Below, one piece after another: positions 2,433 through 16,802 of a stretch of DNA of 17,538 nt. Numbering within the stretch: position 1 is the stretch's first letter; every line of letters begins with the position of its first letter. Under the pieces are notes generated by a model. It saw only the letters and a program-made list of their open reading frames with translations. It did no database searches and was not told where the DNA came from. Both the position numbers and the translations under genes were made by a program. The DNA is from a virus (taxonomy: Duplodnaviria > Heunggongvirae > Uroviricota > Caudoviricetes), in IMG/VR virus record IMGVR_UViG_3300029079_000044. One strand, written 5' to 3'.

Positions 2433-2485
2433 GGGCGGCAGAGCAGTCACGGAGTAAAACTGATACCGCCAAACGTCACCAGAAA
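2433..2485 (-). ncRNA. dicF: DicF small RNA (ftsZ-targeting), 53 nt
   Basis: Reverse complement reads TTTCTGGTGACGTTTGGCGGTATCAGTTTTACTCCGTGACTGCTCTGCCGCCC followed by TTTTT, matching the DicF sequence as I recall it, including the GGCGG...CCGCC enclosing stem and 3' U-run. Confidence 0.8.
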
Positions 2486-7154: not shown

Positions 7155-7224
7155 TTGGCGAGGTAGCGGGAGTTAAGTAAAATTGCTGCGGGTGCTTGAG
7201 GTTGTCTGTCTCAGGCATCCGCAG
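7155..7224 (+). promoter_or_regulatory. Promoter-like element (TTGGCG, 17 nt, TAAAAT) followed by conserved hairpin motif copy A
   Basis: -35 at 7155-7160 and -10 at 7178-7183; hairpin 7186-7224 (CTGCGGGTGCTTGAGGT / loop / TCTCAGGCATCCGCAG) with G-U wobble pairs only on the plus strand; sits at the left boundary of the AT-rich cassette. Confidence 0.4.
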
Positions 7225-8970: not shown

Positions 8971-9198
8971 AGCATATACTATATCTGGAACTGAAATACC
9001 AGCCGCCATCAGAAAGAACTGATGGGGCTTACAAATAGTAAGTAAATATAAAATGTTAAGGTATTTTTCATGCAAAAATGAAAATCATTGGCACAAATTA
9101 GAAACTAAGTAAATTGCTAATACTAATAACTTATTATTCTACTTACTATTTGCATGGAGTTGTTGTGAATTGCTGGAAAGGTGGGTAATGTTTTTGTA

Positions 9199-9237
9199 GA
9201 ATCACGGCGGGTGCTTGAGGCTATCTGCCTCGGGCAC
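9199..9237 (+). promoter_or_regulatory. Conserved -10-like hexamer (TAGAAT) plus hairpin motif copy B
   Basis: GCGGGTGCTTGAGGCTATCTGCCTCGGGCA at 9207-9236 is 26/30 identical to copy A at 7188-7217; forms an 11-bp stem GTGCTTGAGGC/GCCTCGGGCAC with loop tatct; sits at the right boundary of the AT-rich cassette. Confidence 0.4.
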
Positions 9238-9399
9238 GAACACCAAAGGCAGATAGAGAAAAGCCCCAGTTAACATTACGCGTCCTGCAAGACGCTTAAC
9301 ATTAATCTGAGGCCAATTTCATGCTAGACACATGTAGGTTAGCCTCTTACGTGCCGAAAGGCACGGAGAAGCAGGCTATTGTTAACACCAAGCTGTAAT

Positions 9400-10900
9400 G
9401 TCCCCTTTGAACCATTCTAAAATGTCCCCAGACAATTCTCTGGGGGATTTTTCATGATCAAAGAGACTGTTACGATGAGTCATAAGGAACTCCACCGACT
9501 TCAGATTATTCAGGAACAAGCTGCGGCACGCATTGGCATTTCTATTCGGCAGGTTAAACGTCTGGTGCAACGGTATAGAAATGAAGGGCCTTCTGGTCTG
9601 GTTTCCCACCGACGTGGAAAGCGTCCTAATAATTCCTTTTCTACTGAATTCAGAGCAACAGTAATTTCACTCCTCAAAGGCCGTTACGCTGATTTTGGAC
9701 CTACGTTTGCGTGCGAAAAATTGCGCGAGATACACGGTTTATCTTTATCCGTTGAAACTCTCAGAAAGTGGATGATAGAAGAGGGGTTATGGCGTGAACG
9801 CCGTCGTAAAATTGCCCGTATATATCAACGCCGCATGCGACGACCATCTTACGGTGAACTGATCCAGATTGATGGCTCACCTCATGACTGGTTTGAAAAT
9901 CGAGGCCCCAGATGTACACTGATCGTTTTCATTGATGATGCCACCAGTGCGTTGATGGCGTTGCGTTTTGTGCCTGCTGAAACAACCCGGGCTTACATGG
10001 AAACCCTCCGGGGTTACCTTAATGATCATGGCGTACCGCTCGCTCTCTACTCTGATAGACACAGTATATTCAGGGTAAATAACCCAGAGCGGGAAGGTGA
10101 GCTGACCCAGTTCACTCGTGCGATAAAGACACTGGGCATCGAGCCAATCCATGCCAACAGCCCGCAGGCAAAAGGGCGGGTAGAGCGCGCCAATCAGACA
10201 CTACAGGACAGGCTGGTCAAAGAAATGCGGCTTCAGAATATCAGTGATATTGAAACAGCAAATGCATGGTTGCCGACCTTTATTGAAGCCTATAACAACC
10301 GGTTCGCTACGTCGCCTCGTACTACTGATAATGCTCATCTTGATGTGCACCATTCTGAAGAGGAACTGGGTTATATCTTCAGCCTACAGGCGAAGCGCGT
10401 TCTGTCTAAAAATCTCACTTTCCAGTACAAAAGCAGTGCGTTTCAGGTACGCAGTGAGGGCCGGGGATATCGACTTAGGCATTCGGTTGTTACTGTATGC
10501 GAGAACTTTGACGGTGAAATTAACGTTCTGTATGACGGGAAAGCGCTGGGCTGGGAAAAGTATGTTGATGGCCCGGAGCCTATACCACTGGATGATGAAA
10601 AGAGTGTCCATGAACGAGTGGATAATGCCCGTATTGATTTACGCTCAAAATACTATGTTAAACCTAAAGCTGACCATCCCTGGCTTACGCGCCGAACGCA
10701 AAGTCATCAGCAAGTTAAGCCCCCGAAGTTACCTAAAAAGAAGCCTGATCCCGATAAAAAAGATTGAAACCAAGATCGATTCGGTTGAGTGCATATCCAT
10801 TCATAGGGTAGATTCTTAAGTCGCGTTTCTGGTGTTCATTTTCGGGTGGTTTGTTACTTGTTTTACCGGGGATATGCCAGAAACGCGCTGAGTCAGTCTG
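9400..10900 (+). mobile_element. Insertion sequence carrying one DDE transposase gene (IS481/ISNCY-like); ends approximate
   Basis: Single 437-aa transposase ORF; terminal inverted repeats could not be resolved by eye, so these bounds are a guess of ORF plus about 50-130 bp each side. Confidence 0.35.
9454..10767 (+). CDS. DDE transposase with N-terminal HTH and rve integrase core (IS481/ISNCY-family-like), 437 aa
   Basis: Track ORF; N-terminal HTH (ARIGISIRQVKRLVQRYRNEG); catalytic-triad candidates in IQIDGS, YSDRHS and KGRVERANQTLQ; lysine/proline-rich basic C-terminus. Confidence 0.8.
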   Translation: MIKETVTMSHKELHRLQIIQEQAAARIGISIRQVKRLVQRYRNEGPSGLVSHRRGKRPNNSFSTEFRATVISLLKGRYADFGPTFACEKLREIHGLSLSVETLRKWMIEEGLWRERRRKIARIYQRRMRRPSYGELIQIDGSPHDWFENRGPRCTLIVFIDDATSALMALRFVPAETTRAYMETLRGYLNDHGVPLALYSDRHSIFRVNNPEREGELTQFTRAIKTLGIEPIHANSPQAKGRVERANQTLQDRLVKEMRLQNISDIETANAWLPTFIEAYNNRFATSPRTTDNAHLDVHHSEEELGYIFSLQAKRVLSKNLTFQYKSSAFQVRSEGRGYRLRHSVVTVCENFDGEINVLYDGKALGWEKYVDGPEPIPLDDEKSVHERVDNARIDLRSKYYVKPKADHPWLTRRTQSHQQVKPPKLPKKKPDPDKKD

Positions 10901-11203
10901 GGCGGTGCGCGTAATGAGGCGTTATGGTAAATAGCCTATGCTAATGTCCGCTAAGAGCAAGAAGCGGAAGTTGGCAGTTTTGTGGACTGTCCCCACAAAA
11001 GTGACTACAGAAATAGTTGCAATTCATAATTGATCATGGGTTGTCAGTTAAACTCGTGGCGATTTAAATAGACTAATTGGGAGTGCGTCCATTACTTATA
11101 TCTTGTAATGTTAACTATCAGAAATGATACAAAGATAATATGTCTTTAAAGAAAAGGCTGATGGCGAAAAGTGGCCCGATGAGGGCCACAATACGGCTGT
11201 CAC

Positions 11204-11536
11204 TTAGACGTAAATATCAATGGTGCCAGCGGTATTTGTATCGTCTTTTTTCTCTTCTTTTTTATCAGGCTGAACTGTCGCGTCTTCATTCTTTTTCTCT
11301 GCCTGCTGCCTTAACAACTGCTCCAGTTGAGCCCAGAGGCTTTCAATTTGCTTCTGTACCAATGCAGCCATTTCTTTTTTCTGCTGTGTCGTCATCCCCT
11401 CTTCCGATGAGATTTTCCCAAGCTTTTCAGTCAGCACCTGAATTTGTCTTGTGATTTTGGCTATTTCTGATGTTCCTTCCGGGGCGGAGTTGTTTGAAAT
11501 AACGGTTGAGGTATTTCCCTGAATTGTGACAGACAT
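11204..11536 (-). CDS. flxA: FlxA-like protein (110 aa)
   Basis: Track ORF MSVTIQGNTS...; AGGAG Shine-Dalgarno; preceded by a near-consensus sigma-28 promoter; position next to relB as in Qin. Confidence 0.7.
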   Translation of the reverse strand: MSVTIQGNTSTVISNNSAPEGTSEIAKITRQIQVLTEKLGKISSEEGMTTQQKKEMAALVQKQIESLWAQLEQLLRQQAEKKNEDATVQPDKKEEKKDDTNTAGTIDIYV

Positions 11537-11559
11537 AGATTTCTCCTTTTAAAAAAGCA

Positions 11560-11586
11560 CTATCGGCATGCACAAAAAAATCTTTA
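11560..11586 (-). promoter_or_regulatory. Sigma-28 (FliA) class-3 promoter for flxA
   Basis: Minus strand reads TAAAGATT, 11 nt, GCCGATAG against the consensus TAAAGTTT-N11-GCCGATAA; the -10 element lies about 24 nt upstream of the flxA ATG. Confidence 0.6.
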
Positions 11587-11738
11587 ATCGTATTTCTTGT
11601 GTCATTAATTGTTTGATGTTCAGATTGTTTTCCTCGCGGGCTGGCGCGCCTCAGAAAGTAAAGCTTGTTGACAGGGGTAAACGTTCGGCAATAATTTTCT
11701 GCCGCATGCGGGTGTTGCATAAAACGTGTTACGTTCCT

Positions 11739-12044
11739 TTATCGACAGTTCAGGTCACCGCTCACCCGCCGACGAGAAAGCAACACTGACATGCTAAAGC
11801 AAAAAATAGATGAATAAGTTGAGTTGTGCATATGTAGCCTGACCGTCACAAAGTATATGGTGTCTGTACCAGTAAGATGATGGCCGGACTCTTTAAAAAC
11901 GAGCTGACCTGCACAATACAGGATGGACTTAGCAATGGCTGCTCCTGGCACAAAGCGGACAGTGATCACCGTTCTTACGACTACTTTCTGACTTCCTTCG
12001 TGACTTGCCCTAAGCATGTTGTAGTGCGATACTTGTAATGACAT
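11739..12044 (-). CDS. YdfV-like hypothetical ORF (101 aa), doubtful
   Basis: Track ORF with size and position like ydfV between flxA and relB; no convincing Shine-Dalgarno; start lies inside the relBE promoter/operator. Confidence 0.3.
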   Translation of the reverse strand: MSLQVSHYNMLRASHEGSQKVVVRTVITVRFVPGAAIAKSILYCAGQLVFKESGHHLTGTDTIYFVTVRLHMHNSTYSSIFCFSMSVLLSRRRVSGDLNCR

Positions 12045-12060
12045 TTGTAATTACAAGAGG
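12004..12060 (+). promoter_or_regulatory. relBE promoter and relO operator
   Basis: TTGCCC, 17 nt, GATACT, then repeated TTGTAAT/ATTACAA hexads (cttgtaatgacatttgtaattacaag) directly upstream of relB. Confidence 0.6.
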
Positions 12061-12068
12061 TGTAAGAC

Positions 12069-12308
12069 ATGGGTAGCATTAACCTGCGTATTGACGATGA
12101 ACTTAAAGCGCGTTCTTACGCCGCGCTTGAAAAAATGGGTGTAACTCCTTCTGAAGCGCTTCGTCTCATGCTCGAGTATATCGCTGACAATGAACGCTTG
12201 CCGTTCAAACAGACACTCCTGAGTGATGAAGATGCTGAACTTGTGGAGATAGTGAAAGAACGGCTTCGTAATCCTAAGCCAGTACGTGTGACGCTGGATG
12301 AACTCTGA
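12069..12308 (+). CDS. relB: RelB antitoxin (79 aa)
   Basis: MGSINLRIDDELKARSYA...PKPVRVTLDEL matches RelB as I recall it; AGAGG Shine-Dalgarno; TGATG overlap with relE. Confidence 0.9.
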   Translation: MGSINLRIDDELKARSYAALEKMGVTPSEALRLMLEYIADNERLPFKQTLLSDEDAELVEIVKERLRNPKPVRVTLDEL

Positions 12309-12595
12309 TGGCGTATTTTCTGGATTTTGACGAGCGGGCACTAAAGGAATGGCGAAAGCTGGGCTCGACGGTACGTGAACAGTTGAAAAAGAAGCTGGTT
12401 GAAGTACTTGAGTCACCCCGGATTGAAGCAAACAAGCTCCGTGGTATGCCTGATTGTTACAAGATTAAGCTCCGGTCTTCAGGCTATCGCCTTGTATACC
12501 AGGTTATAGACGAGAAAGTTGTCGTTTTCGTGATTTCTGTTGGGAAAAGAGAACGCTCGGAAGTATATAGCGAGGCGGTCAAACGCATTCTCTGA
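12308..12595 (+). CDS. relE: RelE mRNA interferase toxin (95 aa)
   Basis: MAYFLDFDERALKEWRKLGSTVR...VYSEAVKRIL matches RelE as I recall it. Confidence 0.9.
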   Translation: MAYFLDFDERALKEWRKLGSTVREQLKKKLVEVLESPRIEANKLRGMPDCYKIKLRSSGYRLVYQVIDEKVVVFVISVGKRERSEVYSEAVKRIL

Positions 12596-12666
12596 ACCAA
12601 AGCATGACATCTCTGTTTCGCACCGAAGGTGACACTTCTGCTTTGCGTTGACAGGAGAAGCAGGCT

Positions 12667-12822
12667 ATGAAGCAGCAAAAGGCGATGTTAATCGCCCTGA
12701 TCGTCATCTGTTTAACCGTCATAGTGACGGCACTGGTAACGAGGAAAGACCTCTGCGAGGTACGAATCCGAACCGGCCAGACGGAGGTCGCTGTCTTCAC
12801 AGCTTACGAACCTGAGGAGTAA
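12667..12822 (+). CDS. hokD: Hok-family membrane toxin HokD/RelF (51 aa)
   Basis: Hand-translated MKQQKAMLIALIVICLTVIVTALVTRKDLCEVRIRTGQTEVAVFTAYEPEE; below the track length cutoff; follows relE as in the relBEF operon. Confidence 0.8.
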   Translation: MKQQKAMLIALIVICLTVIVTALVTRKDLCEVRIRTGQTEVAVFTAYEPEE

Positions 12823-16086: not shown

Positions 16087-16386
16087 AAAAATTCCTTAAT
16101 ACTGATAACTTGGCGCACTATACACACGTTCCTGAAGAAAGCTATAGTTTTTTGATGGGGTTGAAGATGGCTGGATGTCTAAAATAAACATTGCTTCATA
16201 TGTTCAACTATGCGTTAATGATTGCGTCGGTTTGAAGAACAGACGATATACGAAGTAGTTTACTAAAGCAGTTCTCATTTCAGGTGTTATTCACTTATTC
16301 CTTCTTTGAGTCTCTCCAATTAAGTACGAAGTCGTTTCTGTTATGCAAACCATTTATGCCGAAAGGCTCAAGTTAAGGAATGTAGA

Positions 16387-16602
16387 ATGTCAAATAAAAT
16401 GACTGGTTTAGTAAAATGGTTTAACGCTGATAAAGGTTTCGGCTTTATTTCTCCTGTTGATGGTAGTAAAGATGTGTTTGTGCATTTTTCTGCGATTCAG
16501 AATGATAATTATCGAACCTTATTTGAAGGTCAAAAGGTTACCTTCTCTGTAGAGAGTGGTGCTAAAGGTCCTGCGGCAGCAAATGTTATAATTACCGATT
16601 AA
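16387..16602 (+). CDS. cspB: Cold-shock protein CspB-like (71 aa)
   Basis: [51 protein letters not shown]...; AAGGA Shine-Dalgarno. Confidence 0.8.
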
Positions 16603-16802
16603 AATCCAGGACTCGACTGTATACGATAACGAAGATGGCTGATGCCTGAGTAGAGATGCAGATAGAGTAATGGATATAGAATCCCATTTTGTGGTGAAGT
16701 ACAGGTTTGCTGTATGAATAGTTTAATAGCAGAAGCTAACTGCTGGCATAGTAAAACAAAGTGCGTAAGTGGGTGACTCCCACAAAAAGCACCACAATCT
16801 CA

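What the first reader, a model, noticed from the sequence alone, without database searches (positions are those of the whole stretch)
9400..10900. IS481/ISNCY-like insertion sequence in the cargo region; transposase start flanked by a hairpin that could sequester the ribosome-binding site
A single DDE transposase (437 aa) lies between the defence-like cassette and flxA, where further nin-region genes would be expected, so the IS may have deleted or displaced cargo, including whatever the second promoter-hairpin copy once drove. Directly upstream of the ATG, CCCCAGA-caattc-TCTGGGG (9424-9443) can pair across the only G-rich Shine-Dalgarno-like block, a common way of damping transposase translation. 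An inverted repeat GCGTTTCTGG (10823-10832) / CCAGAAACGC (10875-10884) lies downstream of the stop. I could not identify the terminal inverted repeats or a target-site duplication confidently.
Basis: partly seen in the sequence, partly recalled or inferred. Interest (0 to 1): 0.35.

Follow-up and report, generated by a model that had tools for sequence, protein, structure and literature searches.

The report
relBE transposon splitting the hokD locus
The "insertion sequence" is only the left arm of a 3.3-kb transposon that brought flxA, ydfV and the relBE toxin-antitoxin genes into a prophage hok/sok locus, and its relatives insert at a fixed distance upstream of ordinary bacterial promoters, a target choice I found no report of.

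Summary
The 437-aa DDE transposase ORF (9454-10767) is real. It is an IS1202-family (ISNCY, ISEsa1-like) gene, not IS481. It is not a 1.5-kb IS. The element runs from 9380 to 12653 (3,274 bp). It has 5'-TGT...ACA-3' imperfect inverted repeats (23/34) and a perfect 15-bp target duplication (GGAGAAGCAGGCTAT, 9365-9379 and 12654-12668). Its passengers are flxA, ydfV, relB and relE. It sits in a Qin-like prophage hok/sok locus and separates the hok mRNA leader (9209-9379, Rfam RF01794) from the hokD ORF (12667-12822). An otherwise isogenic prophage in E. coli 746 holds the uninterrupted hokD site. An IncHI2 plasmid (6.1 kb), Kosakonia (9.9 kb) and Scandinavium (4.3 kb) carry the same kind of transposon with other cargo. 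E. coli K-12 keeps only the right 2.07 kb, which includes relBE next to hokD. Across 65 independent insertions of the clade, the left end lies 15-17 bp upstream of a sigma-70 -35 hexamer in 41 (P=4e-35), and 32 of those have a -10 at 17-18 bp. In enterics the targeted promoter is Psok. The window's transposase carries a 9-aa HTH deletion and is probably immobile.

The parts
9174..9202 (+). Promoter-like site of the hok mRNA (TGGAAA-17-TAGAAT). It belongs to the target, not to the transposon, and it transcribes towards the transposon's left end.
   Evidence: Consensus scan. The predicted start, about 9209, coincides with the first base of the RF01794 match.
9209..9379 (+). hok mRNA 5' leader, the 5' half of the split hokD/sok locus. 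It ends at SD_hok plus the 'AT' of the start codon.
   Evidence: Rfam RF01794 'sok antitoxin (CssrC)', 105.6 bits against a gathering score of 59, model positions 1-157/157. It is contiguous with the hokD ORF in the empty site of E. coli 746.
9336..9364 (-). Psok, the targeted promoter. Its -35 is at 9364-9359 (GTGCCT here, TTGCCT in the empty site), followed by a 17-nt spacer and a -10 at 9341-9336 (TAACCT).
   Evidence: Read from the sequence. Position 9364 differs between the occupied and the empty site. The geometry is the same as in 41 other insertions.
9365..9379 (.). Left copy of the 15-bp target-site duplication, GGAGAAGCAGGCTAT.
   Evidence: Exact repeat of 12654-12668, abutting both transposon ends.
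9380..9413 (+). Left terminal inverted repeat (TGTTAACACCAAGCTGTAATGTCCCC...). It includes box 1, AATGTCCCC, at 9397-9405.
   Evidence: The boundary is sharp against unrelated flanks in 8 or more loci. The end is conserved in Hahella, Thiorhodospira, Arenicellales and Binatia copies. It matches the right repeat at 23/34 positions.
9419..9451 (+). Leader stem-loop. Box 2 (AATGTCCCC, 9421-9429) pairs with the SD block (GGGGGA, 9442-9447) and is followed by ATTTTTC.
   Evidence: RNAfold gives -13.7 kcal/mol. The 101-nt leader folds at -26.6 kcal/mol, z = -2.4. The scan calls it terminator-like. An equivalent stem forms in all 20 diverse relatives tested.
9454..10767 (+). IS1202-family (ISEsa1-like) DDE transposase, 437 aa, with D140, D201, E244 and Q251. 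It is an allele with a 27-bp in-frame deletion at 9515/9516 that removes 9 residues of the N-terminal HTH. PGAP splits the ORF into a pseudogene plus 'ydfW' (10618-10767).
   Evidence: The AF2 model matches IstA, TnsB and MuA by fold.
10822..10887 (.). Conserved internal inverted repeat (a 12-bp stem in relatives). Its function is unknown.
   Evidence: The sequence is conserved in 12 relatives and only 2 of 33 predicted pairs show covariation.
10943..10972 (.). Internal hairpin AATGTCCGC-N12-GCGGAAGTT (GCGGACATT in relatives). It marks the end of the conserved transposase module, after which the cargo varies. It is probably the right 'end' of ISEsa1 as catalogued.
   Evidence: Homology with relatives stops here. 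No target duplication can be found at this boundary. ISEsa1 is listed as 1609 bp with no TSD (PMC10132070).
11204..11536 (-). Passenger gene flxA.
   Evidence: Pfam PF14282 FlxA, 2.3e-14. It lies inside the inverted repeats and is absent from the empty site.
11739..12044 (-). Passenger ORF ydfV, with no family match.
   Evidence: It lies inside the inverted repeats and is absent from the empty site.
12069..12595 (+). Passenger type II toxin-antitoxin genes relB (12069-12308) and relE (12308-12595).
   Evidence: Pfam RelB 1e-32 and ParE_toxin 2.2e-13. The same arm, 98.8% identical, lies at the right end of the IncHI2 plasmid transposon.
12620..12653 (+). Right terminal inverted repeat, ...GGTGACACTTCTGCTTTGCGTTGACA-3'. 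Its tip is TTGACA.
   Evidence: The same right repeat occurs in L068, L092, L093 and L095, and as an older end in the L026 flank.
12654..12668 (.). Right copy of the 15-bp target-site duplication. It is SD_hok plus the 'AT' of the hokD start codon.
12667..12822 (+). hokD ORF, the 3' half of the split target. It now follows relBE.
   Evidence: Pfam HOK_GEF 1.2e-23. Annotated as hokD.

Best explanation
The transposase gene is the left arm of a 3,274-bp IS1202-family (ISEsa1-like) transposon, window 9380-12653. It carries flxA, ydfV and relBE as passengers. Shown: it has 5'-TGT...ACA-3' imperfect inverted repeats, repeated AATGTCCCC-type boxes and a perfect 15-bp target duplication, and there is an empty site in an isogenic prophage. 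It inserted into the hokD/sok locus of a Qin-like prophage, 15 bp upstream of the -35 hexamer of Psok. That position lies between SD_hok and the hokD ATG. The hok promoter and leader were therefore cut off from hokD, and hokD now lies directly behind relBE. Also shown: this placement is the rule for the clade. The left end sits 15-17 bp upstream of a sigma-70 -35 hexamer, with a -10 at 17-18 bp, and the transposase gene points away from the targeted promoter. Inferred: a TnsB/IstA/MuA-like DDE transposase binds the boxes, cleaves at the TGT/ACA tips and joins them to target DNA with a 15-17-bp stagger. It probably finds the site through promoter-bound RNA polymerase rather than through DNA sequence alone. 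Inferred: the stem-loop in front of the ATG pairs box 2 with the Shine-Dalgarno block. It would damp translation of read-through transcripts, or terminate them, such as those entering from the hok promoter. Inferred: this copy is probably immobile, because a 27-bp deletion fuses two helices of its N-terminal HTH.
For: Family: NF033594 at 456 bits against a cutoff of 250. D140, D201, E244 and Q251 (E+7) are invariant. The fold matches IstA, TnsB and MuA at E = 3e-14 to 2e-08. Left end: the boundary at 9380 is sharp against unrelated flanks, and the same end occurs in distant multicopy relatives. Right end and duplication: IRL/IRR match at 23/34 and the 15-bp repeat is perfect. Empty site: the joined flanks match as one 500-bp piece at 99.4% in E. 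coli 746 and six other genomes. There the prophage order is QueH, hypothetical gene, KwaB-like gene, hokD, rem, with no tnp, flxA, ydfV or relBE. Parallel elements: the IncHI2 plasmid NZ_CP055552 holds a 6,093-bp transposon with a perfect 15-bp duplication in a plasmid hok locus and a relBE arm 98.8% identical. Kosakonia holds a 9.9-kb element with parDE, gnsAB and the ars operon, a 14-15-bp duplication and a Hok ORF on the right. Scandinavium holds a 4,275-bp element with a tacAT toxin-antitoxin pair and a 15-bp duplication. Simple IS copies of 1.42-1.57 kb have 15-17-bp duplications. Target: 41 of 65 unique left flanks have the TTG of a -35 exactly 15-17 nt away (P=3.7e-35). Of these, 32 of 41 have TAnnnT at a spacer of 17-18 (P=1e-40). 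The matrix is a canonical sigma-70 promoter. Divergent tRNA genes lie 44-104 bp from the left end in 9 of 45 loci. Hairpin. Deletion allele. In the AF2 model one continuous helix, 10-27, runs across the deletion junction.
Against: Nothing here shows transposition, transposase binding or RNA polymerase dependence; these are inferences from sequence patterns. 24 of 65 flanks lack a clean TTG at the expected offset, although several of these are degenerate Psok sites or one-mismatch -35 hexamers. The right repeat has only one clear box plus one weak box, against two in the simple IS copies. The hairpin's two arms are each constrained for other reasons, as a transposase box and as the SD, so their complementarity alone does not prove an RNA function. 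MAFFT/RNAalifold found no consensus structure because the loop lengths differ. flxA and ydfV could have entered the transposon later, since the middle segment differs between copies. I could not compare with the ISfinder ISEsa1 sequence directly.
Confidence: 0.9

Rival explanations
1. A compact, stand-alone ISEsa1-type insertion sequence (about 9380-10972) sits between the defence cassette and resident prophage genes flxA-relBE.
For: Homology with many relatives stops at the hairpin near 10972. ISfinder lists ISEsa1 as 1609 bp (PMC10132070), close to 1593+27 bp here.
Against: There is no target duplication at that boundary in any locus. The 10972 end lacks the family's GTTGACA tip. The empty site lacks flxA, ydfV and relBE as well. 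A perfect duplication plus a good right repeat are found at 12653. The same architecture occurs on a plasmid, in Kosakonia and in Scandinavium.
Confidence: 0.04
2. The promoter association is not target choice. It is survivorship: insertions land at random, and only those in harmless intergenic DNA upstream of promoters persist.
For: Insertions upstream of promoters disrupt no gene. Many copies lie in intergenic DNA next to tRNA genes.
Against: Selection cannot fix the distance to 15-17 bp from the -35 hexamer or the orientation in 41 of 65 sites. New copies land on exactly the same promoter position next to older copies (L043, L026, L032/L066).
Confidence: 0.04
3. The transposase reads DNA sequence only. 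It binds TTGACA-like hexamers because they mimic the TTGACA tip of its own right end, and RNA polymerase plays no part.
For: The right repeat ends in ...GTTGACA-3'. The commonest target hexamer is TTGACA. No accessory targeting protein is encoded.
Against: Only TTG is invariant, and hexamers such as TTGCCT, TTGCAT, TTGTAT and TTGTTC are used. A -10 (TAnnnT) at exactly 17-18 bp accompanies 32 of 41 sites, which a hexamer-binding protein would not require.
Confidence: 0.3
4. The leader stem-loop has no RNA function. Its complementarity is a by-product of a C-rich transposase box lying next to a G-rich Shine-Dalgarno sequence.
For: Both arms are independently conserved as a box and as an SD. RNAalifold found no consensus structure.
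Against: The pair next to the C-run changes in step: A-U in the window, L022 and L028; G-C in L002; U-A in most distant relatives. The Kosakonia copy, which has lost the G-run, keeps an outer stem (GAAAUGUCC/GGAUAUUUC). All 20 sequences fold the SD into the stem.
Confidence: 0.3

Closest known systems
ISEsa1 and the IS1202 family (ISNCY 'IS1202 group'; Harmer, Pong & Hall 2023, PMC10132070; Siguier et al. 2022 bioRxiv 10.1101/2022.12.17.520857)
   Same: Single large DDE transposase with N-terminal HTHs. Q at E+7. Ends are 5'-TGT...ACA-3'. A second internal transposase box lies near the ends. PGAP names the intact allele 'IS1202-like element ISEsa1 family transposase'. The 15-17-bp duplication equals that of the ISTde1 subgroup.
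   Different: ISEsa1 is catalogued as a 1609-bp IS with no target duplication and no known target. Here the element is 3.3-9.9 kb with passenger genes, a distal right repeat, a 15-bp duplication and a defined target. In the papers read here, target specificity in the family is described only for the 3-6-bp-duplication group, which targets dif/xrs sites.
dif/xrs-hunting IS of the ISAjo2/ISAba32 subgroup of the IS1202 family
   Same: Same family. Oriented, fixed-distance insertion of the transposase-proximal left end next to a site occupied by a host protein (XerC/D there). No element-encoded targeting protein.
   Different: The target is a sigma-70 promoter (-35/-10) instead of a Xer site. The duplication is 15-17 bp instead of 5 bp. 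The distance is set from the -35 hexamer.
Tn7/CAST TnsB, IS21 IstA and phage Mu MuA transposases
   Same: The predicted fold (HTH domains, RNase H core, beta-barrel) matches IstA, TnsB and MuA. TGT/ACA ends with repeated internal binding sites.
   Different: No AAA+ target-selecting partner (TnsC, IstB or MuB) and no TnsD or CRISPR module is encoded. Sequence similarity to solved structures is marginal.
Ty1/Ty3 retrotransposons, which integrate upstream of Pol III genes through the transcription machinery (from general knowledge, not tested here)
   Same: Fixed-distance integration just upstream of transcription units, often tRNA genes. Gene bodies are spared.
   Different: Unrelated host domain and different integrase partners. 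Dependence on RNA polymerase is only inferred here.
IS-disrupted chromosomal hok loci and the relBE-hokD ('relBEF') locus of E. coli K-12 (recalled from Pedersen & Gerdes 1999, not read here)
   Same: hokD lies directly behind relBE and lacks its own leader and sok. K-12 is colinear with the window from 10583 onward at 99.98% identity, including the right repeat and the right duplication copy.
   Different: The window holds the complete element and the detached hok leader. This shows that relBE arrived as transposon cargo. I found no paper stating this.

Membership tests
IS1202 family (ISNCY IS1202 group) | Transposase matches the curated family model above its cutoff | tested here: met
   NF033594 transpos_ISNCY_2, 456.4 bits against a cutoff of 250, model positions 7-365/368.
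IS1202 family (ISNCY IS1202 group) | DDE triad with Q, not K/R, seven residues after the E (PMC10132070) | tested here: met
   D140, D201, E244 and Q251 are invariant in 10- and 45-sequence alignments.
IS1202 family (ISNCY IS1202 group) | Imperfect terminal inverted repeats of about 24-26 bp that begin 5'-TGT and end ACA-3' | tested here: met
   IRL TGTTAACACC... at 9380 and IRR ...GCGTTGACA at 12653, matching at 23/34.
IS1202 family (ISNCY IS1202 group) | An additional internal transposase-binding repeat near each end | tested here: inconclusive
   The left end has AATGTCCCC twice (9397-9405, 9421-9429). The right end has GGTGACAC (12628-12635) and a weaker CATGACATC (12603-12611). Binding was not tested.
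IS1202 family (ISNCY IS1202 group) | TnsB-like domain architecture (HTHs, RNase H fold, beta-barrel) | tested here: met
   AF2 model with pLDDT 72.7. Foldseek matches IstA at 3e-14, ShCAST TnsB at 4e-14, Tn7 TnsB at 1e-8 and MuA at 2e-8.
ISTde1 subgroup (15-17-bp direct repeats; Siguier et al. 2022) | Target duplication of 15-17 bp | tested here: met
   15 bp in the window, L020, L068 and L092. 15-17 bp in Thiorhodospira copies and other loci.
ISTde1 subgroup (15-17-bp direct repeats; Siguier et al. 2022) | [quoted passage not shown] | not tested
   No ISTde1 reference sequence was on hand. The Harmer tree places ISEsa1 in a separate 'no TSD' subgroup.
ISEsa1 as catalogued (1609 bp, TIR 15/22, no TSD) | Compact IS bounded about 200 bp after the transposase stop codon | tested here: not met
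   There is no duplication and no family-type tip at 10972. The true right end is at 12653. The ISfinder sequence itself could not be compared.
IS481 family | Transposase matches the curated IS481 model above its cutoff | tested here: not met
   NF033577, 125.7 bits against a cutoff of 224.
[quoted passage not shown] | hok mRNA leader structure, followed by SD_hok and a Hok/Gef ORF | tested here: met
   RF01794, 105.6 bits against 59, full length. HOK_GEF 1.2e-23. The two parts are contiguous in the empty site.
relBE type II toxin-antitoxin (cargo) | Adjacent RelB antitoxin and RelE/ParE-fold toxin genes | tested here: met
   PF04221 at 1e-32 and PF05016 at 2.2e-13. The E. coli 7/2 locus, identical to the window over 9200-11200 and holding the same 3,274-bp element, carries the K-12 RelB and RelE protein accessions.

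The most novel reading that the evidence does not exclude
This clade of IS1202-family elements selects sigma-70 promoters as its target. It inserts 15-17 bp upstream of the -35 hexamer by recognising promoter-bound RNA polymerase (sigma region 4 or alpha-CTD) rather than a DNA motif. That would be a bacterial counterpart of Pol III-guided Ty1/Ty3 integration. In Enterobacterales the preferred promoter is Psok, so these transposons repeatedly decapitate hok genes while delivering toxin-antitoxin and resistance cargo. The classic relBE(-hokD) locus of E. coli K-12 is the remnant of one such event.
Probability: 0.45. Interest if true: 0.85.

Novelty: new variant of a known kind. Interest (0 to 1): 0.72.

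Why it matters
1. It corrects the anatomy of a widespread element. It is present in about 1,170 of 5,426 complete E. coli genomes, and 578 plasmid records hold most of the transposase arm. It is annotated either as a pseudogene plus 'ydfW' or as a 1.6-kb IS with no duplication.

2. It explains how hokD lost its leader and sok and came to lie behind relBE in E. coli K-12. It also shows that relBE is mobile cargo shared between prophages and IncHI2 plasmids.

3. It suggests a target-selection mode I found no report of: oriented insertion at a fixed distance from sigma-70 promoters by a transposase with no targeting partner. This is directly testable. If RNA polymerase is the cue, it would be a new host-factor-guided transposition pathway and a possible tool for promoter-proximal insertion.

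4. It shows that hok/sok loci are recurrent landing pads for cargo-carrying transposons.

Tried and rejected
- I looked for inverted repeats and duplications within 9150-11250. Only chance-level pairs turned up.
- I looked for a target duplication at the 10972 hairpin boundary in 20 loci. None was found. The 9-mer matches in L010 and L028 were chance, because no family-type right end precedes them.
- I first read the hok leader upstream as possibly part of the mobile element. I rejected this because identity drops sharply at 9380, and because loci with unrelated left flanks share the same end.
- I considered that TGTCAA in the flank was a pseudo-end rather than a -35 hexamer. The -10 co-occurrence argues against this.
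- MAFFT/RNAalifold on the leader gave no consensus structure because the loop lengths differ. I folded the sequences one by one instead.
- RNAalifold on the internal module gave a stem without covariation.
- Sequence searches against PDB were uninformative. The fold search was informative.
- A literature search for 'CssrC' returned only unrelated papers.
- Searches for promoter targeting by IS1202, ISTde1 or ISEsa1 elements, and for relBE or hokD as transposon cargo, found nothing relevant.
Full report
**Observation**

The window is a Qin-like lambdoid prophage of E. coli. It is 100% identical over 9200-11200 to many E. coli chromosomes. The annotated gene order is dicB, a cI/cro-like region, QueH, a hypothetical gene, a KwaB-like gene, an 'ISNCY transposase' pseudogene plus ydfW, flxA, ydfV, relB, relE, hokD, rem.

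- The ORF at 9454-10767(+) encodes 437 aa.
- It matches NCBIfam NF033594 (ISNCY family transposase) at 456 bits against a cutoff of 250.
- The IS481 model reaches only 126 bits against a cutoff of 224.
- Pfam sees N-terminal HTH domains and an rve_3 core.
- The downstream inverted repeat is present at 10822-10832 and 10877-10887.

**The transposase allele**

Homologues in E. coli, Klebsiella, Citrobacter, Kosakonia and Leclercia are 446-447 aa. The window protein lacks nine residues (QES[L/I]NRHIT) after residue 19, inside the N-terminal HTH. D140, D201, E244 and the family-typical Q at E+7 are intact.

- The 27-bp deletion lies between TCAGGA repeats at 9515/9516.
- Among complete E. coli genomes, 255 records hold the intact allele and 543 hold the deleted one.
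- About 350 more are K-12-like and keep only the last 185 bp.
- There is one copy per genome, always in this context.
- In an AF2 model (pLDDT 72.7), one continuous helix (residues 10-27) runs across the deletion junction, where a helix-turn-helix is expected.
- The model matches IstA, TnsB and MuA transpososome structures.

**Ends of the element**

I compared the window with 80 related loci from genome collections.

- *Left end.* There is a sharp left boundary at 9380 (TGTTAACACCAAGCTGTAATGTCCCC...), with unrelated upstream DNA in at least eight loci. The same end occurs in multicopy relatives from Hahella, Thiorhodospira, Arenicellales and Binatia.
- *Apparent right end.* On the right, homology with many relatives stops at a hairpin near 10972. 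No target duplication exists there.
- *Ends in simple IS copies.* Multicopy relatives that are simple IS of 1.42-1.57 kb end in ...GGGTTGACA-3' and have 15-17-bp duplications.
- *True right end.* The 15 bp left of 9380 (GGAGAAGCAGGCTAT) recur exactly at 12654-12668. They are preceded there by ...GGTGACACTTCTGCTTTGCGTTGACA, which matches the left end at 23/34 positions.

The element is therefore 9380-12653, 3,274 bp. Besides the transposase gene it holds flxA, ydfV, relB and relE.

**Target and empty site**

The left flank, 9209-9379, is a full-length match to Rfam RF01794. This is the hok mRNA leader, ending at SD_hok plus 'AT'. A promoter-like site lies at 9174-9202. The right duplication copy supplies SD_hok and the ATG of hokD (12667-12822, HOK_GEF).

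- Joining the two flanks in silico gives a 500-bp sequence. It is found as one uninterrupted piece at 99.4% identity in E. coli 746 and six other genomes, and at lower identity in thousands more.
- In strain 746 the same prophage reads QueH, hypothetical gene, KwaB-like gene, hokD, rem, ydfU, ydfT, with no tnp, flxA, ydfV or relBE.
- The one difference within the leader half of the reconstructed site is at 9364. It changes the Psok -35 from TTGCCT in the empty site to GTGCCT in the occupied site.
- E. coli K-12 is colinear with the window only from 10583 onward, at 99.98% identity. It keeps the right repeat, the right duplication copy and hokD. Its relBE-hokD arrangement is thus the right 2.07 kb of this transposon next to its target.

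**Parallel elements**

- An IncHI2 plasmid of Citrobacter freundii holds a 6,093-bp version. It has a perfect 15-bp duplication (GGAGAAGAAGGCCAT) in a plasmid hok locus. It carries a nested IS110-like ISEsa2, cytochrome b and CDF genes. Its relBE arm is 98.8% identical to the window's, whereas the transposase arm is 89.6% identical.
- Kosakonia holds a 9.9-kb version between livF and a Hok ORF. It carries parDE, gnsAB and arsRDABC and has a 14-15-bp duplication.
- Scandinavium holds a 4,275-bp version with GrpB, two acyltransferases and a tacAT-like toxin-antitoxin pair, and a 15-bp duplication.
- 578 plasmid records hold most of the transposase arm.

The catalogued ISEsa1 is 1609 bp with no TSD and no known target (PMC10132070). 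It is most likely the conserved transposase module, cut at the internal hairpin. This is an inference, because I could not read the ISfinder entry.

**Target rule**

I collected 65 unique left flanks, leaving out tandem cases.

- The TTG of a -35 hexamer lies exactly 15-17 nt from the left end in 41 flanks. Background is about 1 per offset (P=3.7e-35).
- Of those 41, 27 have TAnnnT at a 17-nt spacer and 5 at 18 nt (P=1e-40).
- The position matrix is a canonical sigma-70 promoter, TTGaCa-17-TAnnnT.
- Duplications are 15 bp (18 sites), 16 bp (20 sites) or 17 bp (3 sites). They cover roughly -36 to -52.
- The transposase gene always points away from the targeted promoter.
- In 9 of 45 non-enteric loci the promoter belongs to a divergent tRNA gene 44-104 bp from the left end.
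- New copies land at the same promoter position next to older copies (L043, L026, L032/L066).
- In enterics the recurrent target is Psok (TTGCCT-17-TAACCT or TACTCT). This puts the insertion between SD_hok and the hok ATG.

A -10 at the canonical spacing accompanies the site, and only TTG of the -35 is invariant. For that reason I think recognition of promoter-bound RNA polymerase is more likely than recognition of a DNA motif. This is inference only. I found no report of such targeting.

**The hairpin**

The second AATGTCCCC box pairs with the SD block, and ATTTTTC follows.

- All 20 diverse relatives fold the SD into an equivalent stem.
- The pair next to the C-run varies in step as A-U, G-C or U-A.
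- The Kosakonia copy, which lacks the G-run, keeps an outer stem.
- Psok is antisense to hok. Every hok-targeted insertion therefore places tnp in the sense of the hok promoter, which reads straight into the left end.
- A stem that hides the SD, or terminates transcription, just before the ATG fits protection from such read-through. This is the logic known from IS10 and IS50 (general knowledge). It is inferred, not shown.

**Internal module**

The 10822-10887 inverted repeat is part of a roughly 150-bp module conserved in 12 relatives. In Kosakonia it lies after parDE rather than directly after tnp. It shows almost no covariation. Its function is unknown. It ends in the hairpin at 10943-10972, after which the cargo differs between copies.

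**Verdict**

The interpretation as a compact IS that displaced cargo is wrong.

- The feature is a cargo-carrying IS1202-family transposon that split hokD and delivered relBE.
- Confidence in this anatomy is high.
- The promoter-targeting rule is strongly supported statistically. Its mechanism is open.
- This copy is probably a fixed, immobile relic.

Noticed in passing
window 7179-7220: A truncated copy of the hok promoter and 5' leader start (TAAAAT ... GCGGGTGCTTGAGGTTGTCTGTCTCAGGCATCCGC) lies upstream of the hypothetical gene plus the KwaB-like gene. It shares 14 exact bases with 9207-9220.
   Followed up: partly
window 9364: In the occupied site the Psok -35 reads GTGCCT. In the empty site of E. 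coli 746 it reads TTGCCT. This is the only difference within the leader half of the 500-bp reconstructed site, and it fits decay of sok once it was cut off from hokD.
   Followed up: partly
window 10815-10972: A conserved internal module of about 150 bp. It has a 12-bp stem (GCGTTTCTGGYG/CGYCAGAAACGC), the motif GTGCGCGTAATG..GTTATGGTAAAT, and a terminal hairpin AATGTCCGC-N12-GCGGACATT. It is conserved as sequence in 12 relatives and lies after parDE in Kosakonia. Its function is unknown.
   Followed up: partly
L011-L017, L025 and L092 (for example L092 15738-17300); L093 18284-19522: An IS110-like element (ISEsa2) sits at the same point inside the internal hairpin (GAGCGAGA|TATAGTCATTCG) in several plasmid copies whose left flanks differ. 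A second IS110-type gene lies next to the right repeat in Kosakonia. This looks like site-specific IS110 insertion into this transposon.
   Followed up: no
window 12648-12653 with 9380-9401: If the two ends were abutted in a circle, the right tip TTGACA, 16 nt and then TAATGT (box 1) would form a junction promoter. This is the hallmark of copy-out-paste-in IS. The same holds in Hahella and Thiorhodospira copies.
   Followed up: no
L026 2890-2927; L043 right flank; L032/L066; L041 and L040 right ends: Repeated hits on one promoter: a new copy next to an older right end plus the hok start (L026), next to a degenerate older left end (L043), and tandem copies (L032). In L040 and L041 a short piece of the right end is duplicated.
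   Followed up: partly
L025 2897-2927: Here the left end abuts the hok SD, ATG and ORF in inverted orientation. This suggests an inversion between two copies rather than a primary insertion.
   Followed up: no
window 9454-10767 (E. coli 7/2 locus L001 9255-10568): PGAP splits this one uninterrupted ORF into an 'ISNCY transposase, incomplete, missing C-terminus' pseudogene and a separate 49-aa 'protein YdfW'. ydfW is just the last 49 codons of the transposase. In K-12, ydfW is part of the 185-bp remnant.
   Followed up: yes
window 2433-2484 (-) and 16226-16644 (+): DicF antisense RNA (76.7 bits) and a cspA-type thermoregulator leader upstream of cspB (162 bits). Both are ordinary features of Qin-like prophages.
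   Followed up: no
L068 6275-7020; L093 11360-11882; window 12069-12595: A type II toxin-antitoxin pair lies inside each cargo-carrying copy examined: relBE or tacAT near the right repeat, and parDE next to tnp. This suggests that addiction modules stabilise these transposons.
   Followed up: partly
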